Origin: the human T2T-CHM13v2.0 reference genome, Homo sapiens
Length of the DNA: 64,000 bases
Direction of reading: 5' to 3'
Assembly: GCA_009914755.4 (NCBI GenBank)
Contig: CP068257.2
Location: 40,928,001 to 40,992,000, forward strand
Position numbers and translations under genes: made by a program. The notes below the pieces were generated by a model, which did no database searches, was not told the origin of the DNA, and saw nothing but the letters and a program-made list of their open reading frames with translations. Numbering within the stretch: position 1 is the stretch's first letter; the number at the start of each line of letters is the position of its first letter. Shown one piece after another: positions 22,101 through 53,767 of the stretch.

Positions 22101-23790
22101 CTCTCCAGCACTGACAGCCACAGCACCAGGGAGCAGACACAGCTCTCGCTTGTTGACACAACCTAGAGAAAGGCAGAGGGCCAGGGGCACAGGCCCGAGG
22201 CCCCTCAGCAGGTCAGGGCTGGAAGTATAAACAATGCAACCCAGACCTCAAAATCATATCACAGAAATTAAAGACTGGGGAGAACCTTGGCTTCAGAACA
22301 GAAAGTATTCCAGTGCCCAGGAGAAACTGGGTCTGCAGAGGTGGACCCTGGAGCCAGTGTTCAGCCAGAGGAGAACGTCCCAGCCCAGGGTGGGCACCAG
22401 CTTATGGGGAAAGGGCTGTGCATGCTGGCCTGTGGAAGCTGCTGGGTTTAAGTAAAAAGATTTGTTTTTAATTGTGTCCTTAATGCTAGTGACCTTTTCT
22501 GCTGTACCTTCCTCTGTAGCTACCCCCAAATACTTGTACCAAAAGTAGGGTGCACACTAGCATAAAAATACAGGTTTTTATATAGTGGAGGTATAGACAG
22601 TATGGGCTTCAGAGGTCCCGCTCAAGCCTCCCCCTGCCACCGCCAGGCTGAGTGTTCAGGCAAGTGTGGCACACTCTGAGCCTCCATGTCCTCATCTGTC
22701 ACACGGGTTCCATCCCTGGGGTAATACCATATGTTGTTCTGAGGATGAAGTGAGGTCATTTAATGACAACTAAGCACAATGCCAGGCCCATGAAAGGCAT
22801 ACGGTAAATTACACGTACACATCCTCATCAACTGTGAAGACATCAACTCGTTTCATTTTAGAATGACTTGGCAAAGTAGAGCGCTGGGTTCCCCCGGCCC
22901 CCATTCTGATTGATTTCCAGTGCACAGACGGCTGGGGGATTCAGTGCCACAATGTTACTGGATTTCTCACTCTGAATTTTCAGATGGCATCTGGAATTTT
23001 TATCTCACAAGTGCCACCTCTTTCTAAAAGTAGACATAAAACAAACACAAACAGGCATTTTACAGAACCCACCACTCGATTTCCTCACTCATACCTACGT
23101 GTCTCTTTTCACTGTTTTCCCTGATACGGACTGGTCTGTAGTACTCACAAGGCGGGATGCGGTAGCCTGTACGCCTGTGTGCTGACACAATGGTCGGAAT
23201 TGTTTCATCTGTGTGTTTCCAGGTGGCTTGATAATGTACAATGATTTCAGTTCCAGGGAAAAAGAAGGAGCCATTCGATACTCAGTCCACTGCACCCGGC
23301 TATACGAGAACTCTTTTAATAGCTAAGTTTTCCAGGCGATGTAGTATGAAAATCAAACCCGTCCATGTTTGCATTGACTCGACTCTGATGTAAAGACACT
23401 GGGTTTTGATCCTGAACTCCATTTCGAAATTCAGAAACGCCGTAGATAAACAGGGCTTCCTGTCTTCACTTGAAAAGTAGAAAATCTGGCCACGCTGGGC
23501 CTGCACCCCATGTGACAGTGGCCGAGGAGCTGCAGCTGGGGCCCCACCCTTCTCAGAGGCCCCGCCCCTCCCTGGTGCCCCTGCTCGGGGTGAGCGCTCC
23601 ACTGTTCCCGCGTCCTCACTACACCACACAGCGGTGCAGCACCCTCCCCAGTACGTGTCTGGAGGTGCTAAAGCCAGACCAGAGACAGGATGTCTTTATG
23701 GGAGCGAAGTCATATTTAACTCTGTTGCATGTTTACACACACCTGCTGACTCCACATTTGGAGGAGACGCCTGACTGCTCTCTCTTTCAG

Positions 23791-23881
23791 GGCGTGATAG
23801 AGTTCTCACTGTGTCTGCTGTTTGCCAAGCTGGTCAGCTATACTTTCCTCTTCTGGCTGCCCCTGTACATCACGAATGTGG
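23791..23881 (+). CDS. SLC37A1: SLC37A1 coding exon (GVIEFSLCLLFAKLVSYTFLFWLPLYITNV+G)
   Basis: Acceptor TTTCAG ending 23790 and donor G|GTGAGT at 23882. The split codon G+AT gives Asp in the next exon. Confidence 0.85.
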
Positions 23882-30162: not shown

Positions 30163-31639
30163 GTGCGCAGAGAGTTTTAGCTCTGGGAGGTTTGGTGTCT
30201 TAGGGGAAATCACATTGTCACATGCTCGTGAACAGGTACCCAGGGTTCCAACTGCATCTATAACATTGGGTGGGCCGGCTTCTTACTATACGAGCAGATG
30301 AGCAGGGGACATCGGCACACAGAGATGGTCACGCATGCCTGGGTGGCTTGAGAGAGACGGGCGTGTGACTAGCTGTGCGTGTCCAGGTTTTCACCCGAGG
30401 CAGTGGTTGGCAAACTACAGCCCGTGGGCTAACTCAGGTCCACTCATTATTTATCGCCTTCATCTCAAGAAAGGCAGAATCTTATTTAAATTACAGAAAA
30501 ACCAATTGGTCCAAAATCATACAGGGTTCTGAGGTTACCAGCATCGTCGAAGCTCTTGAAGAGAATTCAGTGGCATATTCTGGAATTTAAAAAGGTGGCA
30601 GAATAAGCAAGCCATCCCCTTAGGGAGCAGGCAGGTGGAGCTGGCAGAGTGCCAGTCTCCTCGCCCATGTGCAGCCTGACGGCACGGCTGTGGCCTTCCC
30701 TGAGCCCTTGTATGGGGAGCACGCACAGTGGCTGCACCTGCCAGGCGAAAATCAGGAGTTGCCACACCTGCCAGGTGAAGATCAGGAGGGTCCTTCCTAC
30801 ATGGGGGACGTTATGGGGGGCTGCCTGGTGTGGCTGTCACAGCTAATAAGGAGGACCTGGGGTGCCAACCTGTGTGTCAGTTGCTGCGTGGGGGTCTCCA
30901 GTAAAGCCGAGTGTTTGGTAGATGAAGGTGGCTCGGTAGACCCAGGTCAGCCAGAACCTGGTGCTGGAGCCTTCCCACTGGCTCGTGCAGGGAGCTGATG
31001 TTGCTCTTGGCTGCCCCTGGCCTTGGTGCCAGCAGGCTGGAAACATCACAGCACGTTTCTGGGTGCCCACTGCTGTCTCAGTGATGCAGAATGCAAAGCC
31101 CTCCCGCCACATGGCCTCCCTGCTGCTCCTCCGAAGGCCAGGCTGGCCCCCGTGCGGGCTCTTTGCTCTGGTCACACCCCGTGCCTGGGAAGGTCCCCAC
31201 AGGTGACCTCGTGCCGCACTCCCTCATGCCGCACTCCCTCGTGCCTTGAGTCTTTGCCCAGATATCATCCTGTCAACAAGACTTCCTGGGACCACCCTGC
31301 TGAGAACGCGTGAACCCTTCCGACTCGGCCTCCAGGCCCCTCTCCCGGGTCTGTTCTCTGGAGCGCTCTCCCCATCCGCAGTGGGATTCGGTGCACTCCT
31401 CTGTTTTGTCTCCTCTGTCTCCTGCCACTGGAACGGAAGCTCCAGGAGGACGGGATTTGCCTGATTCTTTGCTGTATCCCAGTGAACTGAATGAGCTGCT
31501 CCCAGACAGTTAGAATCACAGCCGGGGCCCAGGCGGCTGACTGCACAGTGAGGAGCCAGGCCGGACAGGCCCCAGGCGCCCCCGCCCAGCCCTGGGTGGC
31601 GGGAACCCCAGCTCCACGCTGCTGCTGCTGCGTTTCCTT

Positions 31640-31920
31640 GTTCTGCGTTTCCTTGTTCTGGCCTTGTTCTGAGAAGCGGCGGGCAGGGTGGCCGTTGCCA
31701 TGTGACACACGGCCTGATTCTGAGAAGCGGCGGGCAGGGTGGCCATTGCCATGTCATGTGACACACGGCCTGGTTCTGAGAAGCGGCGGGCAGGGTGGCC
31801 GTTGTCATGCGACACACGGCCTGGTTCTGAGAAGCGGCGGGCAGGGTGGCCGTTGCCATGTCATGTGACACACGGCCTGGTTCTGAGAAGTGGTGGGCAG
31901 GGTGGCTGTTGCTCAGAAAG
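31640..31920. repeat. Intronic minisatellite, 51/56-bp unit, ~5 copies
   Basis: TTCTGAGAAGCGGCGGGCAGGGTGGCCGTTGCCATG(TCATG)TGACACACGGCCTGG recurs at 31657, 31708, 31764, 31815 and 31871. Alternate units carry a 5-bp TCATG insertion. Confidence 0.9.
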
Positions 31921-39530: not shown

Positions 39531-41100
39531 GAGACGGGGGCTTGTCGCAGTGGAGAAGGAACTATACCAGGATGTGCAGCAGGTCCGTGAGCTTGAGTTG
39601 GGCTTTTCAAACCTAAGAACTAGACATACCTTTTTCTCTTCACTGATCAACATGCTTTTTGGTATCTTTTCACCAAAATAGACAAGTGTTTCCTCCCGAG
39701 TCTGGAGCTGAGAACCTCCATGATCTGAGCAGGTGTCCTGGGGGGCCAGAGGGCACCATGCTTCCTGCCTCACAACGCACACTGATGGCCAGCTCCAGGG
39801 CCTGCAGGACTGCCTGGCGCACGACCGAAGGCCTCAGGTCTCCAGTGCGTGTCGCCTGGGCTCCTGGAGTTGGTAGGGCCCCTCCTTGTTGGTCATTCTT
39901 GCATGCGTGAGCCAAACACGTGGGCATGTTTTGAAATTGGATCTCTGTTCTTCAGAACTGTCACCATTTACAGTTCATCCCGTACCCACAGATAACACTT
40001 GCTACTATATTCTTCATCTTTTTCTCTCTTAATGATCAGCTTTTCATAATCATAGGCCTCTTTGGGCTAGCACTTTTCATACATCACACTTGGCAGGATG
40101 TAGATGTGGGTAAGGTACCAGCTCAAACACAATAAGCCTGTGCCGGTAGTTGGAGCTAGAGGTTCAGATTCACACAGATGGATTTATTTAACAAAAATCT
40201 TGCTATTGTCACCAGCACTATTGTTCGTACCTGCCGTGTTCCCACGACCTTTACCACCTAATTGTCGCAAACACCTTTCATGCACCAAGCAGAGCAGCTG
40301 GATGCATCTTATCTGTAGGAGGGGCCCCTGTTCTCTCCAGCTTGAACTCACCTCATACAAGGGACTCCTAAGCTCCTACTTGAACCACAAGCACCTAAGA
40401 AAATAGAAGAGTTTCTGCCTTCTAGAGCTCTGGCCTGAGGCTTGGTGGTGGGGCCATGTGTTTGGTTTTTAAGTAGCCCCTCGAGACCCTCCAGCACCCC
40501 TTCCCTGCCTCCCCTGGACCAGTGATCCACCCTGGGTCTGAGGGCATCTGCTGCCCTCTAAGAACGAGGGGCCACGTCCAGGGAGAGCCCTCCTGTGGGC
40601 TGATGTCCCACTTGGGGAGAGACTGGATCCACACTGGAAAATGCACTAGTTAAATTGGAGGTAGCACAATCATTTGTCTGGATTTGTAGGCTGGCGTTGA
40701 GCCCTCAAACATGTGAAGGGCACGGAGTTAAAGCTCTGGGTCCGGCGAGGAGCCAAGGCTGAGGCAGTGATGTTGGTGGAAAGCCCTGGGCCCCGGCCAG
40801 GCCTGGCCTCCAAGGGGCTCCCAGTGGGGTGCGGCTGTCCTGTGACAGCCTCTTCAGACCCCAGGGCTGGCGCCAGAGGAAGTGCTCACCTGGCTTTAGA
40901 GTCACCTGAGAAGCTCGCAGGTCCACCCACTGGGCCACCCGCATTATGGTCCTCTTGTCTTTATTTCCTTTTTCCCACTGTGGACATTTCATGATTGGAT
41001 TAATTTTAGTCTAAACGTGACTTGAACCCAGAAGTAGTTCAGGCTGCATCTCTCCCAAAAGCCTTGTTTTCAGGGCAGCTCCTGGTTCTTCGTGGGCCTT

Positions 41101-41195
41101 CATCAGACAGCCCTGCCCTCATCAGACAGCCCTGCCCTCATCAGACAGCCCTGCCCTCATCAGACAGCCCTGCCCACATCAGACAGCCCTGCCCA
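41101..41195. repeat. 19-bp tandem repeat (CATCAGACAGCCCTGCCCT)x5, intronic, ~190 bp upstream of the exon at 41384
   Basis: Five near-perfect tandem copies. The last two carry a T>A change (…GCCCACATCAG…). Confidence 0.9.
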
Positions 41196-41383
41196 CAGGA
41201 GCCCAGGCCTCCGGCTGAGCATGCAAGCCCCGCTGCTCTTGCAGGGAGGCCACCCCAGGGAAGGTGCTGTGGGGAGAGAGCCACCCGCCCAGGCCTTGCG
41301 GGCCAGGTCCTCATGGTGCCCACGGCGCGGGCCGCCCTGTGCCTGCTCCAGTAACAGGTGGGCTCACCTTTGTTTTGGTGCAG

Positions 41384-41448
41384 TTCCTGATCCGCCTCAT
41401 ACACAAGGAGCTGAGCTGCCCAGGGTCAGCTACGGGGGACCAAGTTCC
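41384..41448 (+). CDS. SLC37A1: SLC37A1 penultimate coding exon (FLIRLIHKELSCPGSATGDQV+cc)
   Basis: Acceptor GGTGCAG ending 41383 and donor CC|GTAAGT at 41449. 65 nt. Confidence 0.85.
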
Positions 41449-41992
41449 GTAAGTCCCACTCGGGCCCTGTCTCCGTGCGTGAAAGCCGGCTCCAAAGTGC
41501 CTTCTGTCCTATCTGCCTTCCGCACCTGGCTTTCCTGAAAGAAAGAAAACGCGTGGCTTATCTTTTCACGGCACGCCACCTTCACTCTCGCTTTTTCTTT
41601 GCTAATAAATACCTCCGGATGGGTTAGTGGTAATCTCTCCTCAAACCCTGAGTGGAAAATGTGAGGGAATTGCCGTCTTTGGCATTCTGTTGGAGCTGCA
41701 GCCCCCCGAGCTCTCCTTGCCTTCCTGCTCGCCCCCTTCTCCCTCCCTCCTCTTTTCCCTCCCCCCTTGGTCCTCCCTCGCTCCCTTCTCACTTCTTCCT
41801 GGCCCCCAGAAGGCTGCGGGAAAGGTGCAAGGGTTTATCCAGCATCCAGCACCCCTGCAGGAGAGGAATCCCTGCTGGGCCGGGAGGGCAGCTGGCTCCC
41901 CATGGGATTTGCACATGGTGTGTGAAGTTCAGCATCTCTTGCTGAGCCACTGCTGGCTGTTAGAGCAGCTCTTCTTTCAACCTTTCTTTCAG

Positions 41993-42008
41993 ATTTAAGG
42001 AACAGTGA
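41993..42008 (+). CDS. SLC37A1: SLC37A1 terminal coding segment (P-FKEQ-stop); last exon continues as 3'UTR
   Basis: Acceptor CTTTCAG ending 41992. cc+a completes Pro, then TTT AAG GAA CAG TGA. Matches the recalled SLC37A1 C-terminus ...QVPFKEQ. Confidence 0.8.
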
Positions 42009-43078
42009 CACCCCACCCCAGTCCCGTGGAGGGGGTCTGGGCCCACCCTTCACAACTGCCTTTCAAGGACAGTTCAGACAAAGGGCCCTGCATGGAAAGA
42101 GTGACCTCCCTTTGCCTTTTGCACACGCACCTGGAAAAGACACAGAAGCCAACCTGAGAACCCCTGGTGCTATTTTAAAGGAGACATATTGCTGAACAGC
42201 AGTGAGAAAAGTCTGCAGGAACTGCTGCCTGAGCCAAGCCAGAGAACCGAAGACCCGGCCGGCCCTGGCCTCACAGGCGTGTGCCCATGCAGCCACCCAA
42301 ATGCACGCGTGACAACAAGGCCGGGAGGGTGGGGGGGGTGCACAGGTAGCCCCGACCCTCTCAGGCATTCCAGCCACAGAACATCAAAGTGAGCGAGTAC
42401 TGCGCTGGCTGTGGCTTCAGAGAACCTGTATGTGCCACGTGGAAAAACAGGACACCAGAGCCCACCAGACAGTGCCGGCCAGCAGAGAAGCAGAGAGCCA
42501 GCGCCACACAACATCAAGAAGGCCGACAACCAGGTTGGAAACCAAGACGGAGCTCAGACCCACCACATCGCCCCAGAGGCTTTTCCAGCACCCATGATGT
42601 TCCGGACTGACCTAAAAACTAATTGTCGAGAAGCCAAGGGTGAGGAGGCAGGAAGCACCTCCGGTTGGAGGCACCCAGGCTTGCCAGCCACAGAGCGCCC
42701 CGAAGTCACCGTCATCCCAGCCCCTGGCCTTCCTGCCGCCCTCCGGGGCCATGGCGCTGCTGTTCAGCTCAGGCACAGGGGCACAGCAGAGGTTTGGGAA
42801 GCGGTCTCCCCACCGGCACTGGGATTGGCGGGTCCAAGCCCAGCAACCGGCTTCGCTCCACAACACACACCACACCTGGGACTGTTTTTAATACATAGCA
42901 ACAGACTGGGTTATTTATTTAAGATGTGTATTGTGTCATATGAAGTTTAAGAGACATAAATGGCATTTTGTTATTTATTAAGACAAACTCCAATTGTTCT
43001 CTGGCTGTTTTTTTCAGTTGTGTCTAGCAAAATACTTATCTGCCCTTTGAAATAAAATGTTTTTGTTTAAAAAATCTC
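42009..43078 (+). other. SLC37A1: SLC37A1 3'UTR (approximate extent), ending after the poly(A) signal
   Basis: No splice donor follows the stop codon. The first canonical AATAAA downstream is followed by a U/GU-rich element. Confidence 0.5.
43051..43056 (+). other. SLC37A1: Polyadenylation signal AATAAA with downstream TGTTTTTGTTT element
   Basis: AATAAA at 43051-43056 and GU/U-rich TGTTTTTGTTT at 43059-43069, about 1 kb after the stop. Confidence 0.5.
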
Positions 43079-44567
43079 AGAACACTCAGAGAATGTTGAT
43101 GATTTCTGCTTACATTTCCATTACGCTAAAAAAGGGAACTTCCAAATCGTGTTGTGTGTTTTGGGTTTTCTCAGGCTTGGACACATTGAGGTTTCTCGGG
43201 TTTGGACACATACTGGGAAAAGACCATTTCCAGCAGAAAAGGGGCCTACCTCTCGGTCCCTTGTTTGCACAGAAGGCCAAGCTGAAGTAAACAGCCATCT
43301 GGGTATTTTATAAATCACGCAGTTTAAAGAATGTCCTAAGATTTGTCCTTGACGAGGAGGTGTCACACCCCGTGGTGGTGGGGAAAGGTGCTGACCTTGG
43401 GAACTACATGGTGGGGTCCAGGCTTTCAAACGTCCTCAGAATGCTGACCGTCCAGATGTGCATGGTGCGGGCTTTCTCTGGATGGAGTGCTGTGGAAGTT
43501 CACTTGGGGACCTCTCACAGCAGCAGGGCAAAGGTCAGAAACAACACACTGTGTGTCCCGCAGTTCTCAGGGGCCTCCTGCTTGAGCTCTGCGGAGAAGC
43601 CCACAGGAGGAACAGACCTGGCTGTGGCGGCTTCTGTGTGCCAGCTGCCCCACTAGATTGGCTCACTCTCTTTTTAATGGCAAGTTATTTATACATTTAA
43701 AAGATTTCTGCTAAAAAAGAACTTCCCTAAACACCAAATGGATGGAGTGTGTTTCCCACACACGCAGCGCACTCAGCTTGTGCTGGCCTTTCCCGGTCCT
43801 CCACCCAATGCTTCCCGCTCCTGGGAGCCTCCCACTTTCCCTCTCTCCCTGACCTGGCTCCAGGCACCAGTCCAGCCCTCTCCCGCTGGTGTCACAGTGG
43901 CCTGGGCTGCCCTGAGCCCCTGCCGGCTGCCATCCCTGAGGACGGGCACCAGCCCCGTGCTCACCACAGGGCACCTCTTCCCTCTGGGTGTGCAGCACTC
44001 GTATCCATGGGGTGAACAAGCGAGGGATGACGCAGATGGCACAGTATCATTACAGGATGCACAGAGGGCTTTTTCCATAAACAAAATTCTTTGCATTCAC
44101 TGCCCCCTGCCTCTCCAGAACTGTCCCCTCTGAGGCCTCATCTAGTCAGAGGCCCAGGGCTGGTGGGCCGGAGCGGACCTTCCTCACCCCATAGCCACCA
44201 GCCAGCATTCAGCACAGCAGCTTTGAGGTGGCGATCGCTATTTCCCCAACTCAATGAACTAAAGTACTAGAAGAAAATCTCCCACAGCTCACAAAGGAAG
44301 AGCAACTTCCCATTTCTGAACCCTCTGAGCTAAACCCTGAGAACTTTTGGAAATGGAGAGTCGATCCTTTTTTTAAAATGAAGAGTATACACACAGCTAT
44401 TTTTTTAAAGCAATTTAGCGGAAATTCACCTTGATTCATGGATGGAAGATTTCATTATGACTTTTAAGGAAAAAAGTACATGATTTCAATATAAAAATAC
44501 ATCTTCATTTGAGCATAGCTGAGGTATTTTCCATCTGCAAACAGCCAGCTCTGAGACACACACACTT

Positions 44568-44756
44568 GCCGTCCTGTGGAAGCGTGGCTCTGCCTGTCAC
44601 GCATGTCTGCGCTTGCCGTCCTGTGGAAGCGTGGCTCTGCCTGTCACGCACGTCTGTGCTTGCCGTCCTGTGGAAGCGTGGCTCTGCCTGTCACGCACGT
44701 CTGCGCTTGCCGTCCTGTGGAAGCGTGGCTCTCCCTGTCACGCACGTGTGCGCTTA
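44568..44756. repeat. 47-bp minisatellite, 4 copies (downstream of SLC37A1)
   Basis: GCCGTCCTGTGGAAGCGTGGCTCTGCCTGTCACGCACGTCTGCGCTT recurs at 44568, 44615, 44662 and 44709 with single-base variants. Confidence 0.9.
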
Positions 44757-47038
44757 GTGCACATCACTAAGACTCTCCTATTCATGTTGACAAAAAAATG
44801 CCGGATCATGGAAACACAAGCTGGTGACAGGGCCAACAAAAGAGCTCAAGGTGGGACTCCAGCTCTCCAGCCTGTCTGTAGGTAGGAAAAACTACTCCTG
44901 GAAGCTCACCTCAGTGAATGCACCTCAGAGTCCAAGAGCTGCCGCGAATACAGGGCCTGGTGGCTGCTATACTGTGCGTCTCAGAGCAGAGCCAGCTCTC
45001 CCATCGCCAGCTTGTAAAATCCAAGAAAACGAAATTGCTTGATAAACTACGAACTGAAAAAAAATGAGCCCTGATTTATTATTATTCAATTCAACAGACA
45101 TAAAAACCACTCTGCTAAATGGCCACAGGACCACTCCAGTCTTGACTCAGCAGAGCACAGCTGGGCCAGGTGAGAAGCAGGTGTGAGGGCACTGTGTCCC
45201 TTGCAGGCTGTGCCCACAAGGCACCCAGGCTGTCCCCCACAGGGCTCCGATGCGCCAGGTCACCTCCCTTCCCAAGGCTCCGCATTGACCCACAGTCTCT
45301 GCACAGGACACCCCAGGTCCCTGGAGGGCAGTAGAAGAGGCTGTAGCACTGGCTGCCAAGGCAGGGGCAGCTGCCAGGCCCACCAGAGACCACGGGCAGT
45401 AGGCAGGTCACTTCCCAGGGTGGGGAGGGGGGCTGAGGTGGGAGCACAACCTAGGCCCCTCCTGGGGAGGTGGTGGAGTCAGAATCACGTAAGAGACAAA
45501 GTTCCAGTCCCTCAGTGCCGGCTCCATTGTCCCCTGGACTTCCCTTACAAACCACAGATGCAAAGAGAGCACTTCTCGGAATCTCCACACAGCCACGGTG
45601 GAGCACTCAACCCACGCGACCCTCGGGCGCAGGTGCTGGGTGACTGCCCTGGCCATGTGCCCTGTGGCCCCGCAGAATGACACCTCATCCAGGATGGAAG
45701 CGGGAACCGAAAGCCTGGCTGAGAGACCCCAGGGGTCTGAGTCGGGAGGAGCGATGGTTCATTTGGAACCCAGTGGTGCCCTTCACTGAGTTTGGGTTAA
45801 CTGTCATCACTTCCCTGTCCCGTGCGTTCCAACGTGCCCCGCCCCTGAGAACAGATCCAAGGGACTCTGAAGAACGCAGTCCTGAGCTGCTTGCTCATTC
45901 TGAAGCCAGCTCTTGTTGCTGGCCCCCTCCAAGGGGGCCTGTGAGCTCCAGACATGGGGATAATGTGGGGTCTGGGCCACCCGTAGTGGTGGCCAAGTGC
46001 AGCATGTTCCCCGCCACACCCCTTGGGAGCTGGAATTTAACTCCAGCTGCTGAACACAGGCAGTGTTTCTGGCACCCAGGGCCTCACCCTCCCAGGAGAG
46101 TCCATCATTGCTGAGCCAGTCGCAGGTCACCATGAAGCATCGCCCTGGGCAGCAAGTGGGATGCAGGGGCACAGCAGGGCACGTCCCAGGCGGCTGAGAA
46201 AGTCCACGGAGGGCAAGGGCAGGGGCGTGCGCCATCGTCGGAGACAGTCGGGGTGGGCAGCACCCTGGACTGCTGGGAAGGACAGTGGGGGGAGGGTGGA
46301 AGGCAGGGGAGCCCTTGCCAGTTGAGAATTTCTTGATCCTTGGAATTGGTCCCCAACATCCTCTGGGACACGCTTAACAATGGTCAGGTCTGGTAACTGA
46401 AAGAAGCAATTGAGGCAAATATCTCAATCAACCGAGGTTTATTCTGCCAGCGTTAGGGCATGTCCAGGAAAACACAAGCCACAGACACATCTGTGGCTGT
46501 TTTTCTAAAGAGGCTTACAAGAGGTTTGGTATTTAGACATTGAGGTGAGGTGAATGGTGACATTCTTGTGAGACTTCAGTTAGCACCCAGTAAATCTGCA
46601 TTTCACATAAGGTAAATATTTGAAGAAGAAAAGGGAGCAAAGGAGGAATCCATTTTGCAGACTTCTCTGGGTAGGTGGAGGAACACTTGATCTCGTCTTG
46701 TCTTTGGCCTGCCCCTGGGAGGACAAGCTTGTAAAGGACATTATCAGCATAGAATGGAACAGACTCTCATTTTAGGAGCTGGACTTACATTGCACACCTA
46801 AATTTATGATTGGCATGTCCTTGTTTATGGGAGGCCAGCAAAGAATGTACTGATGAAAGATCTGTGGGAGCACTTGCAGACGGCTGTGGCCTCCACCTTT
46901 CTGTGGGGACCTGGCTGATGCATCCTATTCATGACAGCTGTCCATACGGATGCAGCGTTGCATGATTCTCACTCCAGGCTTAATCTTCCCTTTGGCATAA
47001 GAAGTTTGGGCATCCTGTGATTTTTACGCCCACAGCCA

Positions 47039-47350
<312 letters not shown>

Positions 47351-48185
47351 AATTTTTGACCAAAACAGGATCGGTGAGTGGATGTCATGTGTCATTTGGG
47401 CCAACAGTGAACACGGACTTTGAAGGCATCTTGATCCAGAATATTCCATTCCCTTCTTCCTTGACTTGGTAATAACCAAGACGGTTCTGTCTCTCTTTGA
47501 AATTCTAAAATGAGGCAGGCATTGGACATTCTGTTACTGTTAAAATCCACACCCTGCCTGCCTCTAAAAGGAACTTGGAGTGGAGATGCAGAAAAACGGC
47601 AGGTGCGTTTAAGGAGTCCCTGCACCCCACGACGAAGTGACAGCCACACCCAGACATCCTGGAGCCCAAAAGGAGGAGCTAGTGGCTCTGGAGGGGCAGC
47701 CTCTCCCGGTCTCAAGGGCTATTATTATTATTATTATTTTTTTTGGAACTGAGGTGACATTTACATAACATGCAAATAATCATTTCAAAGCATATGGTCG
47801 GTGGCGTCTGGTGCATTCACAGTGCTGTGCAGCCACCAGCTCTCTCAAGGTCAACACGTCTCATCACCCCAGAAGATCACTAGAACCTGGTAAGCGATAG
47901 CTCCCCTTCCCCTCCCACTTAAAATGAGAGTTTTCAAGGAGATTGGGTCCAGGGTGGCTGTGAGCACTAAAATTCTGGAGCAAGGTGAAAAATAGACCCC
48001 ACTTCTCCTTCCATGCTAAGCCACTGATTCATTAAAGAAACACAGGGAAGGAGCCTATACTCAAAATTAGCATCTCCAGTGGAAACATGGCTTGAGAATT
48101 ATGCGTCCTTACGGACCAGAGACCAGGCCTCCAAGAATTCTCCCAGGAAACAAATGTCCAGCAGGACCATGGCTGGGCTGTCACG

Positions 48186-48492
48186 TCCAGAAGCCACCAG
48201 GCCACAGCAGGGGCCCCGGCAGGCAGGCCACCGTCGGAAGCCGGCAGGCCACCGTCGGAAGCCACCAGACCACAGCAGGGGCCCCGGCAGGCAGGCCACG
48301 GTCCAGAAGCCACCAGGCCACAGCAGGGGCCCCGGCAGGCAGGCCACGGTCCAGAAGCCACCAGGCCACAGCAGGGGCCCTGGCAGGCAGGCCACGGTCC
48401 AGAAGCCACCAGGCCACAGGAGGGGCCCCGGCAGGCAGGCCACGGTCGGAAGCCACCAGGCCACAGCAGGGGCCCCCGGCAGGCAAGCCATG
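48186..48492. repeat. 48-bp GC-rich minisatellite, ~6.5 copies
   Basis: CCAGAAGCCACCAGGCCACAGCAGGGGCCCCGGCAGGCAGGCCACGGT iterated, including one truncated 21-bp unit. The period is a multiple of 3, so all frames stay open (ORF-track artefacts 48032-48813). Confidence 0.9.
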
Positions 48493-49138
48493 GTTGGGGC
48501 TGCTTTGGCCTCTCTTTCCCTTTTGCACCAGCTTTCAATAAGGCTTTCTTCTTCCACGTCCCCACGACCCCTTGATCGTCCACCTGCTATTGGCAGCGAA
48601 GCCTTGAGGCTCTCATGGTGTGTCCCCACATGTCCGCAGACGGGAAGGAGTCACCCCAGCCTCCTGGGGCAGCAGGATGCAGCATATCTGACTCTCATCA
48701 CACTTTCTGTATCTCAGCAAGTTACCAACATTTCTTTGTATTTACTTCTGGTAAGAACAAAAACCTTAGCTGGGGCCTTGGCTGCCCTTGGAGCTGCTGG
48801 GAAAGTTACATGAGTAGAAGGGTTGGGTTAAAGGATGGAAACACCTCTGTCTACACCAGCTCACGATAAGCCTGAAGAGGAGTTTGGAGTCCCTCAGACG
48901 CTTTCGGCACCACTTAGTCAGCGGGGGGAATAATAGCTTTCCGGGAAATAGGCCCGAGACGCGGGAAGGGAAGGGAAGGGAACCCCGTGGGAAAGACCTT
49001 ACTCATTCTGCCCCTTGCAGTCAGCACCTGAGGAGAAGCAGCGGGGAAAAGAAGTGCCAAGCTCGCCGCGTTGACCAGTGTCAGGGCCGAGTAGCCACAG
49101 GACGGAACTGAGAAGCGAGTACCAACATCAAGCCTGCC

Positions 49139-50090
49139 GCGCCATTTATATCCACGCATGCGTTTCCCCTTACCTGCACCGAGCCTCCCGCCCCGTTTAT
49201 ATCCACGCAGGCGTTTCCCCTTACCTGCACCGAGCCTCCATTCCCGTTTACATCCACGCAGGCGTTTCCCCTTACCTGCACCGAGCCTCCCGCCCCGTTT
49301 ACATCCACGCAGGCGTTTCCCCTTACCTGCACCGAGCCTCCATTCCCGTTTATATCCACGCAGGCGTTTCCCCTTACCTGCACCGAGCCTGCCGCCCCGT
49401 TTACATCCACGCAGGCGTTTCCCCTTACCTGCACTGAGCCTCCCGCCCCGTTTATATCCACGCAGGCGTTTCCCCTTACCTGCACCGAGCCTCCCGCCCC
49501 GTTTACATCCACGCAGGCGTTTCCCCTTACCTGCACCGAGCCTCCCGCCCCGTTTATATCCACGCAGGCGTTTCCCCTTACCTGCACCGAGCCTCCATTC
49601 CCGTTTACATCCACGCAGGCGTTTCCCCTTACCTGCACCGAGCCTCCCGCCCCGTTTACATCCACGCAGGCGTTTCCCCTTACCTGCACCGAGCCTCCCG
49701 CCCCGTTTATATCCACGCAGGCGTTTCCCCTTACCTGCACCGAGCCTCCATTCCCGTTTACATCCACGCAGGCGTTTCCCCTTACCTGCACCGAGCCTCC
49801 ATTCCCGTTTATATCCACGCAGGCGTTTCCCCTTACCTGCACCGAGCCTCCCGCCCCGTTTATATCCACGCAGGCGTTTCCCCTTACCTGCACCGGGCCT
49901 CCATTCCCGTTTATATCCACGCAGGCGTTTCCCCTTACCTGCACCGAGCCTCCATTCCCGTTTATATCCACGCAGGCGTTTCCCCTTACCTGCACCGGGC
50001 CTGCCGCCCCGTTTACATCCACGCATGCGTTTCCCCTTACCTGCACTGGGCCTGCCACCCTGTTTATATCTATGCCTGCGTTTTCCTCTT
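49139..50090. repeat. 51-bp CpG-rich minisatellite (VNTR), ~18-19 copies
   Basis: Unit GTTTA(T/C)ATCCACGCAGGCGTTTCCCCTTACCTGCACCGAGCCTCC(CGCCCC/ATTCCC) recurs at 49195, 49246 and onward with strict 51-bp period. Two unit subtypes alternate. 51 = 17 codons, so all six frames are stop-free across the array. Confidence 0.95.
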
Positions 50091-51194
50091 GCCTTTTCAA
50101 TCCAGAGGCCTCACTAGCTTTGGCCTAGTCATCCTTTCTCCTTGTCTTCTCTTCAGGTATTTTATTGATGACTTCCTGATAGCACCAAATGGCTCCCCGA
50201 GGGCTCTGAGGCATTCACACGTGTGTGAGAGTGTGCAGGGATTCCCTGGAATTCAGAGGGACTGCCTTAGACTAATTTGACTGCTTTTGGGCAAAATAAG
50301 CTTATGGCCTGAAACTTGCCGATTATCCTGGCCCAGCCGTGCCTTGCCAAAGGTGTCTCTGGCCTGGCTAGCGGGTTGGGGCAGCAGCAGCAATCACCAG
50401 TGTGACCTGAGGGCGCCGTGTCACAAGCGCAGGGTACTTTGGTGGACACCTGAGAGGCAGGAATCCTGCTCAGGAGGATGAGGCTGCAGGACGCCCCCAC
50501 AGCCTGTTGTGGTCAGACCCCGAGGATCCAGTGCCAGCTTGTGGTCCCCCTACTCGCTTACTGAGAACCCAGAGCCTGCCCCCAGGGCCCCGAGAGCCTT
50601 TACGCACAGTTTAATAACTAGCTGTGACTGCACACCCATGCAAGCGCTCTCCCGGGCAGGAAATCAAATGTCACCAGCACTCCGGAAACAGCCCTTATGA
50701 GGAAACGGCATTCTGGCCCCGGGGGTTTTAACTGACTTTACCTGGTGGGCCATGTGGATCCCCTCAGCCGCGCCTCTCCTCTTTACAGCCTTTGCCCACT
50801 GTCCTACTGGGCCGTTTGTCTCTTTCTAACTAATTTGTGTCAGTACCTTCTGAGCTCCGTTCACGTCTGTGAGGGTTAGTTTTCTGCGCCCTCTTGACCA
50901 GGCCTTAGGACCCAGTTATTCAAGTGAACACTACTTAGGATGTTGTCGTGAAAGCATTTTATAAATGTGCTTAACATCGCCAATCCATCAACTTTAACTA
51001 AAGGAGATTTATCCTCCATAACTTGGGTGGGCCTGGTTCAGTCAGTTGAAGGGTTTGAGAGCAAAACTGAGGCTTCCCCGAGGAAGGAGAAATTCCACCC
51101 GTGGACTCAGCCTCAGCTCTGGCCTGAGAGTTTCCAGCCTGACACCTGCCCTGGATTTCAGACTTGCCTAGCCAGCCCCCACAGTTACATAAGC

Positions 51195-51470
51195 CAGTTC
51201 CTTGAAGTGAATCTGTGTGTGCACATGTGCATGTGTGTGTGTGTGCATGTGTGTGTCCATATGTGTGTGTCCGTGCATGAGTGTGCATGTGTGTATGCAT
51301 GCATGTGTCCGTGTGTGTGCATCCATGTGTGCATGCACATGTGCATGTGTGTGCATGCATGTGTGTGCACGTGTGCGTGCATGTGTGCACGTGTGCGTGT
51401 GTGTGCATGCATGTGTGTGCATGTGTGTGTGCGTGTGTGTGCGCGTGTGCGTGTGATCTCCAACTGGTTC
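51195..51470. repeat. Cryptic (TG)n/(TGTGCA)n-type purine-pyrimidine alternating repeat
   Basis: Approximately 275 bp composed almost entirely of GTGTGCATGTGTGTG-like iterations; the strand is essentially all G/T. Confidence 0.85.
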
Positions 51471-53767
51471 TGTTCCTCTGGCTGAACCTGGAGGATGCAT
51501 CGTCTTTCTGCATTGTCTACCTGTTTTACAGGGACCTGCCTTATCTTTAAAATCAGAAGTAATTAAGTTCATTTTAAAAGTCAAGGCGAGTACCAAAAAG
51601 AATGTAAACACTCTATTCCAAGGCTGTTTCTTCCTGGGACAGTTGTATTTTTAACACATTTTCCCAAGAGTTGCTGCAGCCACTCTGTGTGAGCCCCGCA
51701 TCCTACCACAGCCTTAGGGACAGCAAGGTCACCAGCTCTAGAAGCTCTGCCTTCAGAACGGCCCACTCTGCAGCCAGCCCCATGAAGACACCTCTTGGGT
51801 GCCTGGTGTTGTAAAATTTACCCAAATCCAGAGCCATGATTCCAAACCTGATGGTAGAAGAGCAGCATTCATTTGCTTGTTCATTCATTCAGCACACTCG
51901 TATTGCCAAGCCCTGAGAATAAGCGCAGGGATACGGTAATAAACCGGGAGAGCCAAATCGGCCCCATGGAGTCGAGTCTAGGGGAAGCAATAGACGACTA
52001 ACAAAGGAACAGTAAACAGTCTGGGGCAGGAGCGGGGGGTGTATGATTGTGTATTGACGGTCGTCTTCGAGGATGGGATAAGGGTGTGATGGAATGAACC
52101 CTGCAGATCTAAGGAAAGGCCATTCCAGACCCTAGAGGAGGTCCAGGAAGGAAGTTCAGGAGCACAGGCCACAGAGGGTCACTGATTTCACCAATTTCAC
52201 CAGGATCAGGGTTTTCCATACCACTAAGGCTGGAGGGACAAGGGACAGGAGCGTGAAAGGAGAGGCGAGGCTGGTGCCCCAGGAAACCCAAGCCTGGTCT
52301 CAGGCTGGTGAAGAGGTGGATGATGGAGCGAGTGGGGAATGAGTGGTCCCAGTGGCCGGAAAGCTTGCTGGGGGCTGATCTGGACAGATGGGAGGTGGGT
52401 GAGGTCCTGGGAGCGGAGGTTCTGGAGACCGGCGGGCATGGCCAATGATGAGCCCTAGGACGTGACTCTCACAATGGGGACTGAAGGGGTTGGAGGGAGG
52501 TGCCGTTGGAAAATTGCAGTAAGTGAGAAGAGTCAGAAATGGGAGGACCAGAGGGAAAGCCACTTCTCAGAGAAGAGTAACAGGTTCAACTTTGGTCCAA
52601 TAATCACAATTTAGAGCTGACAGCAGCTTCAGAGGCCATGTGACAGATAAGGAAACTAAGGCCCCAAAAGCAGCCGTGGAGACCAGACCCAGGGGTTCCG
52701 GCCACGGCTCTGTGCCTTTTGTAAAGGCAGCCTATGTCTGCACTCACCTGTGCTCTGGCCCAGGCCGGCCCTGCACTTCGATTGCCGGGAGCCCTGCACG
52801 CGGAACTGTGTCTGCAGAAGCTCCTTTTGGCACCTGGGAGGGCACCTCTCATCAGTACTCCAGGACCTCGGCCATCGCCACGGACCGCAGGGTGAACGCT
52901 GGGTGGGCTGTACCATGGCCTCGGCCACCGCCTGCAGATCCAGGCTCCCTGCAGCCTGCTGGGCTGGTGGCCTCAGGGGACCGGTGAGCTGCGTCTGCCT
53001 GGGCTCCCGAAAGGCCGCTCCCAGGTTTTGATTTTGCTTTGTTACCTAGAACCCAGGCCCTCTGTTGCCACAAGAGGGCCCCCCAGCCCCGGCTCACTGA
53101 GGCCCTCCCCGTGGAGGAGCGTATCCTGTCCGGTCCGCAGCTCAAATATCCAGAGATCGGGAGACCCCGGCCCTGGCCCCACCCCCGCCCCAGCTGGGCC
53201 ACACTGCCCCCTCCACCACACCCCGGCAAGCCCCTCCTGGGGCTGCACTCAGTCCTGGGTGTCAGAGGGTCCTCTGGCTTCGCTTGTCACATTTAATGAC
53301 AAATCAGAAATCAAATGTATCCAGAGCCAGCCTGGGCTTTAGGATAGAAGGGGAGGGCAGGAGTGGGGGCTCCGGGGACAGGGGCTGGCCGAGGAGGGAG
53401 GATGGGGGCAAGAGGATATTCGTGGGGCACCCACTCCCCACCCATCCGCCACCCCCTCCTCCCAGTGCTCCTTCTGAGGCCTCGCTGTCCCCGCCTTTTA
53501 GTAAAAAGTGGAGAAACAGCCTCACAGGGTGACCTGCTTCAGCTCCCAAAGCCATGCTGTGGCTGACCAGGGTCAGGACCCAGGTACCAGGTCCACGGCT
53601 CAGGGGTGGGAGCCAAGCCTCACTCGACTCCACGCTCAGGGCCGGGACCCAGGCCACAAGCCCGACCTTTGTCCTTTCCTCGAGCTTGCTGGGAAGCCTA
53701 GACTCACCCAAATCCAACCCAAAAAAGGCTGCAACAAACCAGCCTTGCTTGTGATTTCGTTTTATGA

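What the first reader, a model, noticed from the sequence alone, without database searches (positions are those of the whole stretch)
49139..50090. CpG-rich 51-bp minisatellite, ~19 copies, open in all six reading frames
This is a strictly periodic 951-bp array. Each 51-bp unit carries about 5 CpGs, and two subtypes alternate (…CCTCCCGCCCC vs …CCTCCATTCCC). The complementary strand is G-run rich (GGGGCGGGAGG…GGTAAGGGGAAACGCC), so it could form a G-quadruplex. The period is a multiple of 3 and the units are stop-free. This produces the longest ORFs in the window (370, 339 and 319 aa) on both strands, which are artefacts. Minisatellites of this type are usually highly length-polymorphic and can be differentially methylated. 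21q22.3 is known to be minisatellite-rich. Lying about 7 kb 3' of SLC37A1, it could be a useful VNTR marker or a methylation-sensitive element.
Basis: seen in the sequence. Interest (0 to 1): 0.5.

Follow-up and report, generated by a model that had tools for sequence, protein, structure and literature searches.

The report
Ordinary GC-rich 51-bp minisatellite downstream of SLC37A1
This is a real but ordinary non-coding tandem repeat (19 copies of a 51-base unit) about 7 kb past the end of the SLC37A1 gene; it grew from a single copy during primate evolution and changes copy number quickly between species, and its long "genes" are artefacts.

Summary
The array is real. It spans 49131-50099, with 19 in-register 51-bp units, no indels and 82 CpGs (observed/expected 1.14 against 0.39 in the flanks). 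Two details of the observation are wrong. Only five of six frames of the consensus unit are stop-free, because one minus-strand frame has two TAA per unit. The two subtypes do not strictly alternate, and there are two independent dimorphisms. No canonical G-quadruplex motif exists on either strand, and G4Hunter peaks at 1.40.

The gene context is confirmed. The SLC37A1 stop codon lies 7.1 kb upstream on the same strand.

Orthologous loci fetched through SLC37A1 proteins show the history:
- Black rhino has one roughly 52-nt proto-unit.
- Baboon and macaque have about 6 and 8 decayed, CpG-poor units that match one-to-one.
- Chimpanzee has about 37 CpG-rich units.
- Human has 19.

The first and last units are orthologous across catarrhines. 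The human and chimp interiors are homogenised with species-specific variants.

This is a typical GC-rich, long-motif subtelomeric VNTR evolving by unequal exchange and conversion. The 370, 339 and 319 aa ORFs are by-products. Human length polymorphism and methylation could not be tested here. The cross-species data make polymorphism likely.

The parts
49131..50099 (+). Whole 51-bp minisatellite array: 19 in-register units, the + strand is C-rich
   Evidence: TRF; register listing; GC skew -0.32 to -0.43; CpG observed/expected 1.14-1.17
49131..49181 (+). Unit 1, an old edge unit carrying variants G6, G11, A14 and T29. It is orthologous to chimp unit 1 and close to unit 1 of macaque and baboon
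49182..49997 (+). Homogenised interior, units 2-17. There are four unit haplotypes (CGC/ATT at positions 8-10 combined with T/C at position 19) and only 3 private substitutions in 816 nt
49998..50099 (+). Units 18-19, old edge units. Unit 19 is degenerate and has lost 4 of 5 CpGs by transitions. It is orthologous to the last unit in chimp, macaque and baboon and aligns to the single rhino proto-unit
49041..49130 (+). Unique left flank used as anchor. It is conserved in chimp, macaque and baboon
50173..50195 (+). Unique right anchor TTCCTGATAGCACCAAATGGCTC, an exact match to the degenerate pattern (M = A or C) in chimp, macaque, baboon and rhino
48914..50026 (-). Artefactual 370-aa ORF produced by the stop-free repeat frame
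49081..50100 (-). Artefactual 339-aa ORF. It has no homologues, and its Pfam 'Sarcoglycan_1' score comes only from summing repeats (0 stretches pass on their own)
49158..50117 (+). Artefactual 319-aa ORF

Best explanation
This is a non-coding, GC-rich, long-motif subtelomeric minisatellite (VNTR) in the intergenic DNA 7.1 kb downstream of the SLC37A1 stop codon.

History, with each step marked shown or inferred:
- A single roughly 52-nt sequence, still single-copy in black rhino, was the starting point (shown).
- It was tandemly duplicated before the catarrhine ancestor (inferred from shared first and last units).
- In Old World monkeys the array stayed short, at 6-8 units. The units drifted apart and lost their CpGs (shown).
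- In the human/chimp lineage the interior was amplified and kept homogeneous (shown). The likely processes are unequal exchange, replication slippage and gene conversion between repeats (inferred).
- The result is 19 units in this human sequence and about 37 in chimpanzee, each with species-specific repeat variants. The outermost units stayed old and decayed (shown).

The CpG density is a property of the amplified unit combined with recent homogenisation (inferred). The long ORFs are a by-product of a period divisible by 3 and a unit that lacks stop codons in five frames (shown). It most probably has no selected function. Its likely consequences are length polymorphism in people and a roughly 1-kb CpG-dense block that may be methylated.
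For: - Array anatomy.
- SLC37A1 identity of the upstream exons: 100% to a transcript-derived protein, 96-98% to mouse and primate SLC37A1. Stop codon at 42006-42008.
- Colinear orthologous loci: rhino has no array and one proto-unit. Macaque has 8.1 copies of period 52, 80% matches. Baboon has 5.7 copies, 84% matches. Chimp has 36.3 copies.
- Anchor-to-anchor distances: 1043 bp human, 1939 chimp, 496 macaque, 383 baboon.
- CpG per 100 bp: 8.5 human, 8.8 chimp, 2.4 macaque, 2.6 baboon.
- First and last units are orthologous across species. Macaque and baboon units match 1:1. Chimp-specific variants GTCTCCCC and GTTCACAT contrast with human GTTTCCCC.
- The unit occurs nowhere else in the window or in the other six loci scanned (L001-L004, L006, L007), about 0.5 Mb in all.
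- The ORFs have no homologues and no real Pfam match.
- Class properties match published genome-wide findings. VNTRs with GC above 60% and motif above 15 bp are 21-fold enriched within 5 Mb of chromosome ends (PMC7608644). Human VNTRs concentrate in subtelomeres (PMC13308034). The chimp locus lies 4.1 Mb from the end of the chimp chromosome 21 record.
Against: - No second human haplotype could be examined, so polymorphism in people is inferred, not shown.
- The chimp array comes from an older long-read assembly. It has many 1-4-nt indels and a 38-nt poly-C run, so its unit count is approximate and some variants may be errors.
- The timing of the first duplication is poorly bounded. Capuchin, colugo and mouse lemur lack or have lost the orthologous segment.
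- It is unresolved whether the interior CpGs are ancestral and protected or partly gained. All five weak/strong differences from the monkey edge unit are G/C in hominines, and three of them are at non-CpG sites.
- A regulatory role cannot be excluded with sequence alone.
Confidence: 0.85

Rival explanations
1. Regulatory VNTR or CpG island: the roughly 1-kb CpG-dense block acts as a methylation-sensitive enhancer, promoter or insulator. Its copy number would tune expression of SLC37A1, PDE9A or a nearby non-coding RNA.
For: - It meets sequence criteria for a CpG island: 969 bp, GC 60%, observed/expected 1.14.
- Each CCCGCCCC-type unit carries a GC-box-like GGGGCGGG on the minus strand.
- Common VNTRs are enriched in CpG islands and TF-binding clusters genome-wide (PMC8096271).
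- CpG density rose about 3.5-fold and total CpG count 8- to 20-fold between monkeys and hominines.
Against: - No expression, methylation or chromatin data are available here.
- The array is absent or tiny in rhino, capuchin, colugo and lemur, and decayed in monkeys, so there is no deep conservation.
- Copy number differs 2-fold between human and chimp, which argues against tight constraint.
- No paper links a VNTR here to SLC37A1 or PDE9A.
Confidence: 0.08
2. G-quadruplex or other non-B DNA element: the G-rich minus strand folds into G4 or hairpins that stall replication and drive instability, or act as a structural signal.
For: - There are three G runs of at least 3 per CCCGCCCC-type unit on the minus strand.
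- G4Hunter reaches 1.2-1.4 in 166 of 893 windows.
- 67 motif starts appear if loops up to 25 nt are allowed.
Against: - No G3+ motif with loops up to 7 or up to 12 nt on either strand.
- No window reaches G4Hunter 1.5.
- The CCATTCCC subtype loses one of the G runs.
- Single-strand DNA folding of three units is not better than shuffles: z -1.04 for the minus strand and -1.65 for the plus strand.
Confidence: 0.04
3. Protein-coding repeat: one of the open frames, for example SLPPRLYPRRRFPLPAP on the + strand, is a real repetitive exon.
For: ORFs of 319-370 aa are the longest in the window.
Against: - Five frames are open at once, which is what composition and period predict and not what selection predicts.
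- No homologue at E<=1e-5 for the 339-aa ORF.
- No real Pfam domain. The single hit has 0 stretches passing on their own.
- The array is missing or non-orthologous in most mammals examined. Monkey copies have 52- and 63-nt units that break the frame.
Confidence: 0.01
4. Transposon-derived VNTR: the array is the internal tandem-repeat region of a composite retroelement such as an SVA-like element.
For: GC-rich 35-50-bp VNTRs occur inside SVA elements (own knowledge). Long TR motifs often match VNTRs in composite retrotransposons (PMC13308034).
Against: - The flanks are unique and colinear from rhino to human, with a single proto-unit at the same position in rhino.
- There is no other copy of the unit in about 0.5 Mb examined.
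- No Alu-like or SINE-R-like parts adjoin it.
- No Dfam or RepeatMasker search was possible.
Confidence: 0.02

Closest known systems
GC-rich long-motif subtelomeric VNTRs of the human genome (class described by Linthorst et al. 2020, PMC7608644; classical minisatellites reviewed by Vergnaud & Denoeud 2000)
   Same: - Motif of 51 bp, above the 15-bp threshold, and GC of 60-61%.
- Strong strand asymmetry and internal variant repeats.
- Old, decayed edge units with a homogenised interior.
- Location about 4 Mb from the chromosome end.
- Clustered with other minisatellites.
- Large copy-number differences between closely related species.
   Different: Nothing in kind. Population polymorphism, the defining 'V' of VNTR, was not measured here. 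No exact PRDM9 13-mer hotspot motif is present in or near the array.
Hypermutable minisatellites such as CEB1, MS32 and the insulin VNTR (own knowledge)
   Same: Tandem GC-rich units, variant-repeat maps, and polarity between array ends and interior.
   Different: - CEB1 and the insulin VNTR carry canonical G4 motifs. This array does not.
- Turnover here looks slower, on a million-year scale: 3 private substitutions in 816 interior nt and species-level differences, with no measured germline rate.
CpG islands by sequence criteria (Gardiner-Garden & Frommer)
   Same: Length, GC content and CpG observed/expected thresholds are all met.
   Different: The CpG density comes from amplification of one unit. 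There is no evidence of a promoter, and the orthologous monkey sequence is CpG-depleted, at observed/expected 0.53-0.61.

Membership tests
Minisatellite / VNTR | Head-to-tail tandem array with a unit of roughly 10-100 bp | tested here: met
   Period 51, 18.4-19 copies, 0 indels
Minisatellite / VNTR | Internal variant repeats, with older and more diverged units at the array ends | tested here: met
   Four interior unit haplotypes. Units 1, 18 and 19 carry 4, 4 and 18 differences from the consensus
Minisatellite / VNTR | Copy number varies among individuals of the species | not testable with these tools
   No second human haplotype was reachable. GRCh38 and T2T chromosome 21 are in the collection, but their longest SLC37A1 isoform could not be looked up. 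Short-read catalogues cannot span a 950-bp array (PMC8096271)
Minisatellite / VNTR | Rapid copy-number change between related species, with concerted evolution of units | tested here: met
   About 6, 8, 19 and 37 units in baboon, macaque, human and chimp. Interior variants are species-specific
GC-rich subtelomeric VNTR class (PMC7608644) | GC above 60%, motif above 15 bp, within 5 Mb of a chromosome end | tested here: met
   GC 0.604-0.610. Motif 51 bp. The chimp orthologue ends at 29.11 Mb of a 33.23-Mb chromosome 21 record. The human position was not measured directly
CpG island (sequence definition) | At least 200 bp, GC at least 50%, CpG observed/expected at least 0.6 | tested here: met
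   969 bp, GC 60%, observed/expected 1.14
CpG island (functional definition) | Unmethylated in the germline, or associated with a promoter | not testable with these tools
   No methylation or transcription data. CpG-to-TpG/CpA decay in edge units 1, 18 and 19 and in the monkey arrays suggests germline methylation
G-quadruplex-forming sequence | Four G runs of at least 3 with loops of 1-7 nt (or up to 12 nt), or G4Hunter of at least 1.5 | tested here: not met
   0 motifs in the array on either strand at loops up to 12 nt. Maximum |G4Hunter| is 1.40
Protein-coding tandem repeat | One frame preferentially open, homologues or domain matches, and frame kept in orthologues | tested here: not met
   Five frames are open. 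No homologues. No real Pfam match. Monkey units of 52 and 63 nt break the frame
Higher-order repeat array | Identity at a multiple of the basic period clearly exceeds identity at the basic period | tested here: not met
   Identity is 94.4% at a 51-bp shift against 95.7-96.3% at 102, 153 and 357 bp, so there is no sharp multi-unit period
PRDM9-motif recombination hotspot | Exact CCNCCNTNNCCNC 13-mer | tested here: not met
   None between 48000 and 51500 on either strand. By eye (no tool run), the ATT subtype matches 7 of the 8 fixed positions

The most novel reading that the evidence does not exclude
The expansion in the human/chimp lineage created a new 1-2-kb CpG-island-like block from CpG-poor ancestral DNA. 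Its copy number and methylation might now modulate SLC37A1, PDE9A or a local non-coding transcript. Alternatively, if the region is transcribed antisense, its 18 tandem consensus 5' splice sites (CAG|GTAAGG on the minus strand) might act as a U1 snRNP-binding platform.
Probability: 0.05. Interest if true: 0.5.

Novelty: new member of a known kind. Interest (0 to 1): 0.2.

Why it matters
In itself it matters little. It is one of many GC-rich minisatellites near human chromosome ends, and it is very likely already listed in automated tandem-repeat catalogues, although no paper describing it was found.

It is a clean worked example of how such arrays arise. One copy in an outgroup became a short, decayed, CpG-poor array in monkeys and a large, homogenised, CpG-rich array in human and chimp, with fixed old edge units.

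Practically, it warns annotators that the three longest ORFs of this 64-kb window are repeat artefacts. It is also a plausible long-read VNTR marker between SLC37A1 and PDE9A.

Tried and rejected
- Searched for the 339-aa array ORF among 5.8 billion proteins, hoping for versions from other assemblies. There were no hits.\n- Made exact-pattern scans of metagenome and prokaryote-genome contigs for the unit core and for the right flank, looking for human contamination. All four scans found nothing.\n- Ran a full-text search for six substrings of the unit on both strands. No paper holds any of them.\n- Searched the literature for SLC37A1 or PDE9A together with VNTR, minisatellite or methylation. 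Nothing concerns this locus. One paper reports an unrelated 654-bp non-reference insertion in an SLC37A1 intron.\n- Tried to fetch a second human haplotype (GRCh38, T2T) and other apes through SLC37A1 isoforms. The index holds only the longest isoform, so P0003, P0125, P0121, P0243 and P0249 failed. A second cluster listing gave the same members.\n- Capuchin, colugo and mouse lemur loci turned out to be uninformative because the orthologous segment is deleted or unalignable.\n- Tested for an ancient local duplication flanking the array. Only an Alu pair was found.\n- Single-strand folding was not significant.\n- The Pfam 'Sarcoglycan_1' hit was rejected as a repeat-summation artefact.\n- The Rfam scan found only an Alu-type SRP match, far from the array.

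Full report
**1. The observation**

Tandem Repeats Finder reports one array at 49131-50070: period 51, 18.4 copies, 93% matches, no indels, score 1572. That is by far the highest score in the window. Laid out in register from 49131 there are 19 units ending at 50099, and the last one is degenerate. A 30-nt core of the unit occurs 18 times, against none in 100 shuffles.

Units carry 5 CpGs (CCCGCCCC subtype) or 4 CpGs (CCATTCCC subtype). The array has 81 CpG in 918 bp, GC 61% and CpG observed/expected 1.17. The 2-kb flanks are at 0.39-0.40 and the whole window at 0.34. ORFs of 370, 339 and 319 aa are present and are the three longest in the window.

Two statements in the finding are wrong:
- The consensus unit is stop-free in five frames, not six. 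One minus-strand frame has two TAA per unit, 39 stops over the array. One plus-strand frame is interrupted by a TGA created by a CpG-to-TpG change in unit 6.
- The subtypes do not strictly alternate. Their order over units 1-19 is G G A G A G G G G A G G A A G A A G G.

A second dimorphism, T/C at position 19, segregates independently, so the interior consists of four unit haplotypes. Identity at shifts of 102-357 bp (94.3-96.3%) is barely higher than at 51 bp (94.4%), so there is no higher-order period.

**2. Context**

The window is mammalian. It has an Alu-type SRP match and a CpG observed/expected of 0.34.

Plus-strand exons at 5.2-42.0 kb encode the C-terminal 345 residues of SLC37A1. They are 100% identical to a transcript-derived protein and 96-98% identical to mouse, baboon and chimpanzee SLC37A1. 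The stop codon is at 42006-42008, and an AATAAA follows at 43051.

The array therefore starts 7.1 kb after the stop codon and about 6.1 kb after the likely poly(A) signal, on the same strand.

The surrounding 10 kb holds four more minisatellites or compound repeats: 41096-41194, 44565-44755, 48190-48494 and 51214-51455.

**3. Related sequences**

No public DNA collection offered here holds primate genomes directly. I therefore used SLC37A1 proteins to fetch the gene plus 10 kb of downstream DNA from annotated assemblies. All loci are colinear with the window.

I used a conserved left flank (human 49041-49130) and an exact right anchor (human 50173-50195) as boundaries. The table gives the interval between them and what it contains.

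| Species | Anchor-to-anchor interval | Array length | Units | TRF period, copies, matches | CpG per 100 bp (obs/exp) |
|---|---|---|---|---|---|
| Human | 1043 bp | 969 bp | 19 | 51, 18.4, 93% | 8.5 (1.14) |
| Chimpanzee | 1939 bp | 1865 bp | about 37 | 51, 36.3, 80% | 8.8 (1.12) |
| Macaque | 496 bp | 422 bp | about 8 | 52, 8.1, 80% | 2.4 (0.53) |
| Baboon | 383 bp | 309 bp | about 6 | 51, 5.7, 84% | 2.6 (0.61) |

Black rhino has no tandem repeat at this position. It has one roughly 52-nt sequence that aligns to the unit, best to the terminal human unit, directly followed by the conserved right flank.

Three other species were uninformative:
- Capuchin lacks human 49124-51675 altogether.
- In colugo, human 48894-52112 is reduced to 441 unalignable bp.
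- Mouse lemur has no 51-bp array between the gene and the TG-rich repeat.

**4. Anatomy across species**

- The first unit is orthologous between human and chimp, as are the last two units. The last unit is recognisably the same in human, chimp, macaque and baboon.
- Macaque and baboon units match one-to-one. Little has happened there since those genera split.
- Human interior units are nearly identical to each other, with 3 private substitutions in 816 nt.
- The human interior differs from the chimp interior by variants that are common within each species' array: chimp GTCTCCCC and GTTCACAT against human GTTTCCCC. This is concerted evolution.
- The ATT subtype occurs in both human (7 of 18 units) and chimp (3 units). 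The TAT/TAC dimorphism is also seen in macaque units and the rhino copy, so both variants are old.
- Human edge units show CpG-to-TpG/CpA decay. Unit 19 has lost 4 of 5 CpGs, whereas the 16 interior units have lost one.

**5. How it most likely works**

Shown:
- A single-copy progenitor exists in an outgroup.
- A short, decayed array exists in monkeys.
- A large, homogenised array exists in human and chimp, with a 2-fold copy-number difference between them.
- The edge units are stable.

Inferred from established knowledge of minisatellites: the interior turns over by unequal exchange, replication slippage and conversion between repeats, probably linked to the high recombination of subtelomeric DNA.

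The CpG richness follows from amplifying a CpG-bearing unit faster than CpGs decay. Decay at the edges and in the monkey arrays suggests that the sequence is methylated in the germline, not protected.

One point is unresolved. All five weak/strong differences between the hominine interior consensus and the monkey edge unit are G/C in hominines, and three are at non-CpG sites. This fits either decay in monkeys or GC-biased conversion in apes. More apes and outgroups are needed to decide.

**6. Rejected or weakened readings**

*G-quadruplex.* There is no G3+ motif with loops up to 12 nt on either strand. G4Hunter maximum |score| is 1.40, and motifs appear only when loops up to 25 nt are allowed. 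Folding three units as single-stranded DNA is not better than shuffles, with z of -1.04 and -1.65.

*Coding.* Five frames are open at once. The one ORF searched (339 aa) has no homologue. The only Pfam hit is a summed-repeat artefact with no stretch passing on its own. Monkey units of 52 and 63 nt break the frame.

*Transposon origin.* The flanks are unique and colinear, and there is no other copy of the unit in about 0.5 Mb. Dfam could not be searched.

*PRDM9 motif.* None is present.

**7. Comparison with what is known**

The array fits the published class exactly. VNTRs with GC above 60% and motifs above 15 bp are 21-fold enriched within 5 Mb of chromosome ends and make up most subtelomeric structural variation (PMC7608644; also PMC13308034). 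The chimp orthologue lies 4.1 Mb from the end of the chimp chromosome 21 record (chromosome assignment from my own recall).

Short-read VNTR catalogues cannot genotype arrays longer than a read (PMC8096271). This may be why no locus-specific literature was found.

**8. Verdict**

This is a real feature, correctly recognised as a minisatellite with artefactual ORFs. The six-frame and G4 claims are overstated, and the polymorphism and methylation claims are untested.

It is an ordinary member of a well-known class. The evolutionary series adds detail and makes human length polymorphism likely, but it is not surprising to a specialist. Interest is 0.2.

Noticed in passing
window 44565-44755; L003 77184-77470; L002 73819-74279; L006 73822-73999: The neighbouring 47-bp minisatellite also changes copy number between species: 4.1 in human, 6.1 in chimp, 10.1 in macaque, and 4.0 copies of a 43-bp unit in baboon. 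The 48-bp array at 48190-48494 has 5.3 copies in human but only 2 x 77 bp in chimp.
   Followed up: partly
window 49168-50043, minus strand: Every unit carries CAGGTAAGG, a near-perfect 5' splice-site consensus, on the minus strand. There are 18 copies against 0.7 expected in the window. The plus strand therefore reads CTTACCTG, like the 5' end of U1 snRNA. TTACCTGCA is kept in nearly all non-terminal macaque and baboon units (baboon unit 4 reads TTACTTGCA) but is absent from the terminal unit and the rhino copy. This is probably a founder effect of the amplified unit.
   Followed up: partly
L004 73560-73579 (capuchin) and L007 73657-74098 (colugo): About 2.5-3.2 kb, comprising the array, its right flank and the TG-rich repeat (human 49124-51675 and 48894-52112 respectively), is missing in capuchin and colugo but present in rhino and catarrhines. 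These look like independent deletions or assembly collapses.
   Followed up: partly
L003 82094-82131 (chimp array): A 38-nt poly-C run and many 1-4-nt indels lie inside the chimp array. They are probably long-read assembly errors in Clint_PTRv2, so the chimp unit count (about 37) and its variants are approximate.
   Followed up: no
window 48079-48813, plus strand: The fourth-longest ORF of the window (244 aa) lies over the adjacent 48-bp minisatellite. It is likely another repeat artefact.
   Followed up: no
window 49084-50100, minus strand: The 339-aa array ORF gets Pfam Sarcoglycan_1 at E 7e-12, above the curated cut-off, although no single stretch passes on its own. This is an example of a false domain call produced by summing weak matches over tandem repeats.
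   Followed up: yes
window 41000-51182 versus L003: Human-chimp identity in the unique flanks is only 96.9-97.7%. That is lower than the roughly 98.8% genome average I recall, and consistent with a fast-evolving GC-rich subtelomeric region.
   Followed up: no
window 31660-31912: A 56/107-bp minisatellite (4.7 or 2.4 copies) lies inside an SLC37A1 intron and produces a 215-aa minus-strand ORF at 31224-31871.
   Followed up: no
window about 23700-23880: The transcript-derived protein P0001 starts with intron-encoded residues (MGAKSYLTLLHVYTHLLTPHLEETPDCSLFQG) that continue into the exon at 23791-23880. This suggests an intron-retaining or alternative-start SLC37A1 transcript in public RNA data.
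   Followed up: no
L002 70706-81275 minus strand and 6146-81275 plus strand: The macaque annotation has a 153-aa minus-strand gene and a 550-aa NDUFV3-family call, and both run across the whole region including the array. They are probably annotation artefacts.
   Followed up: no
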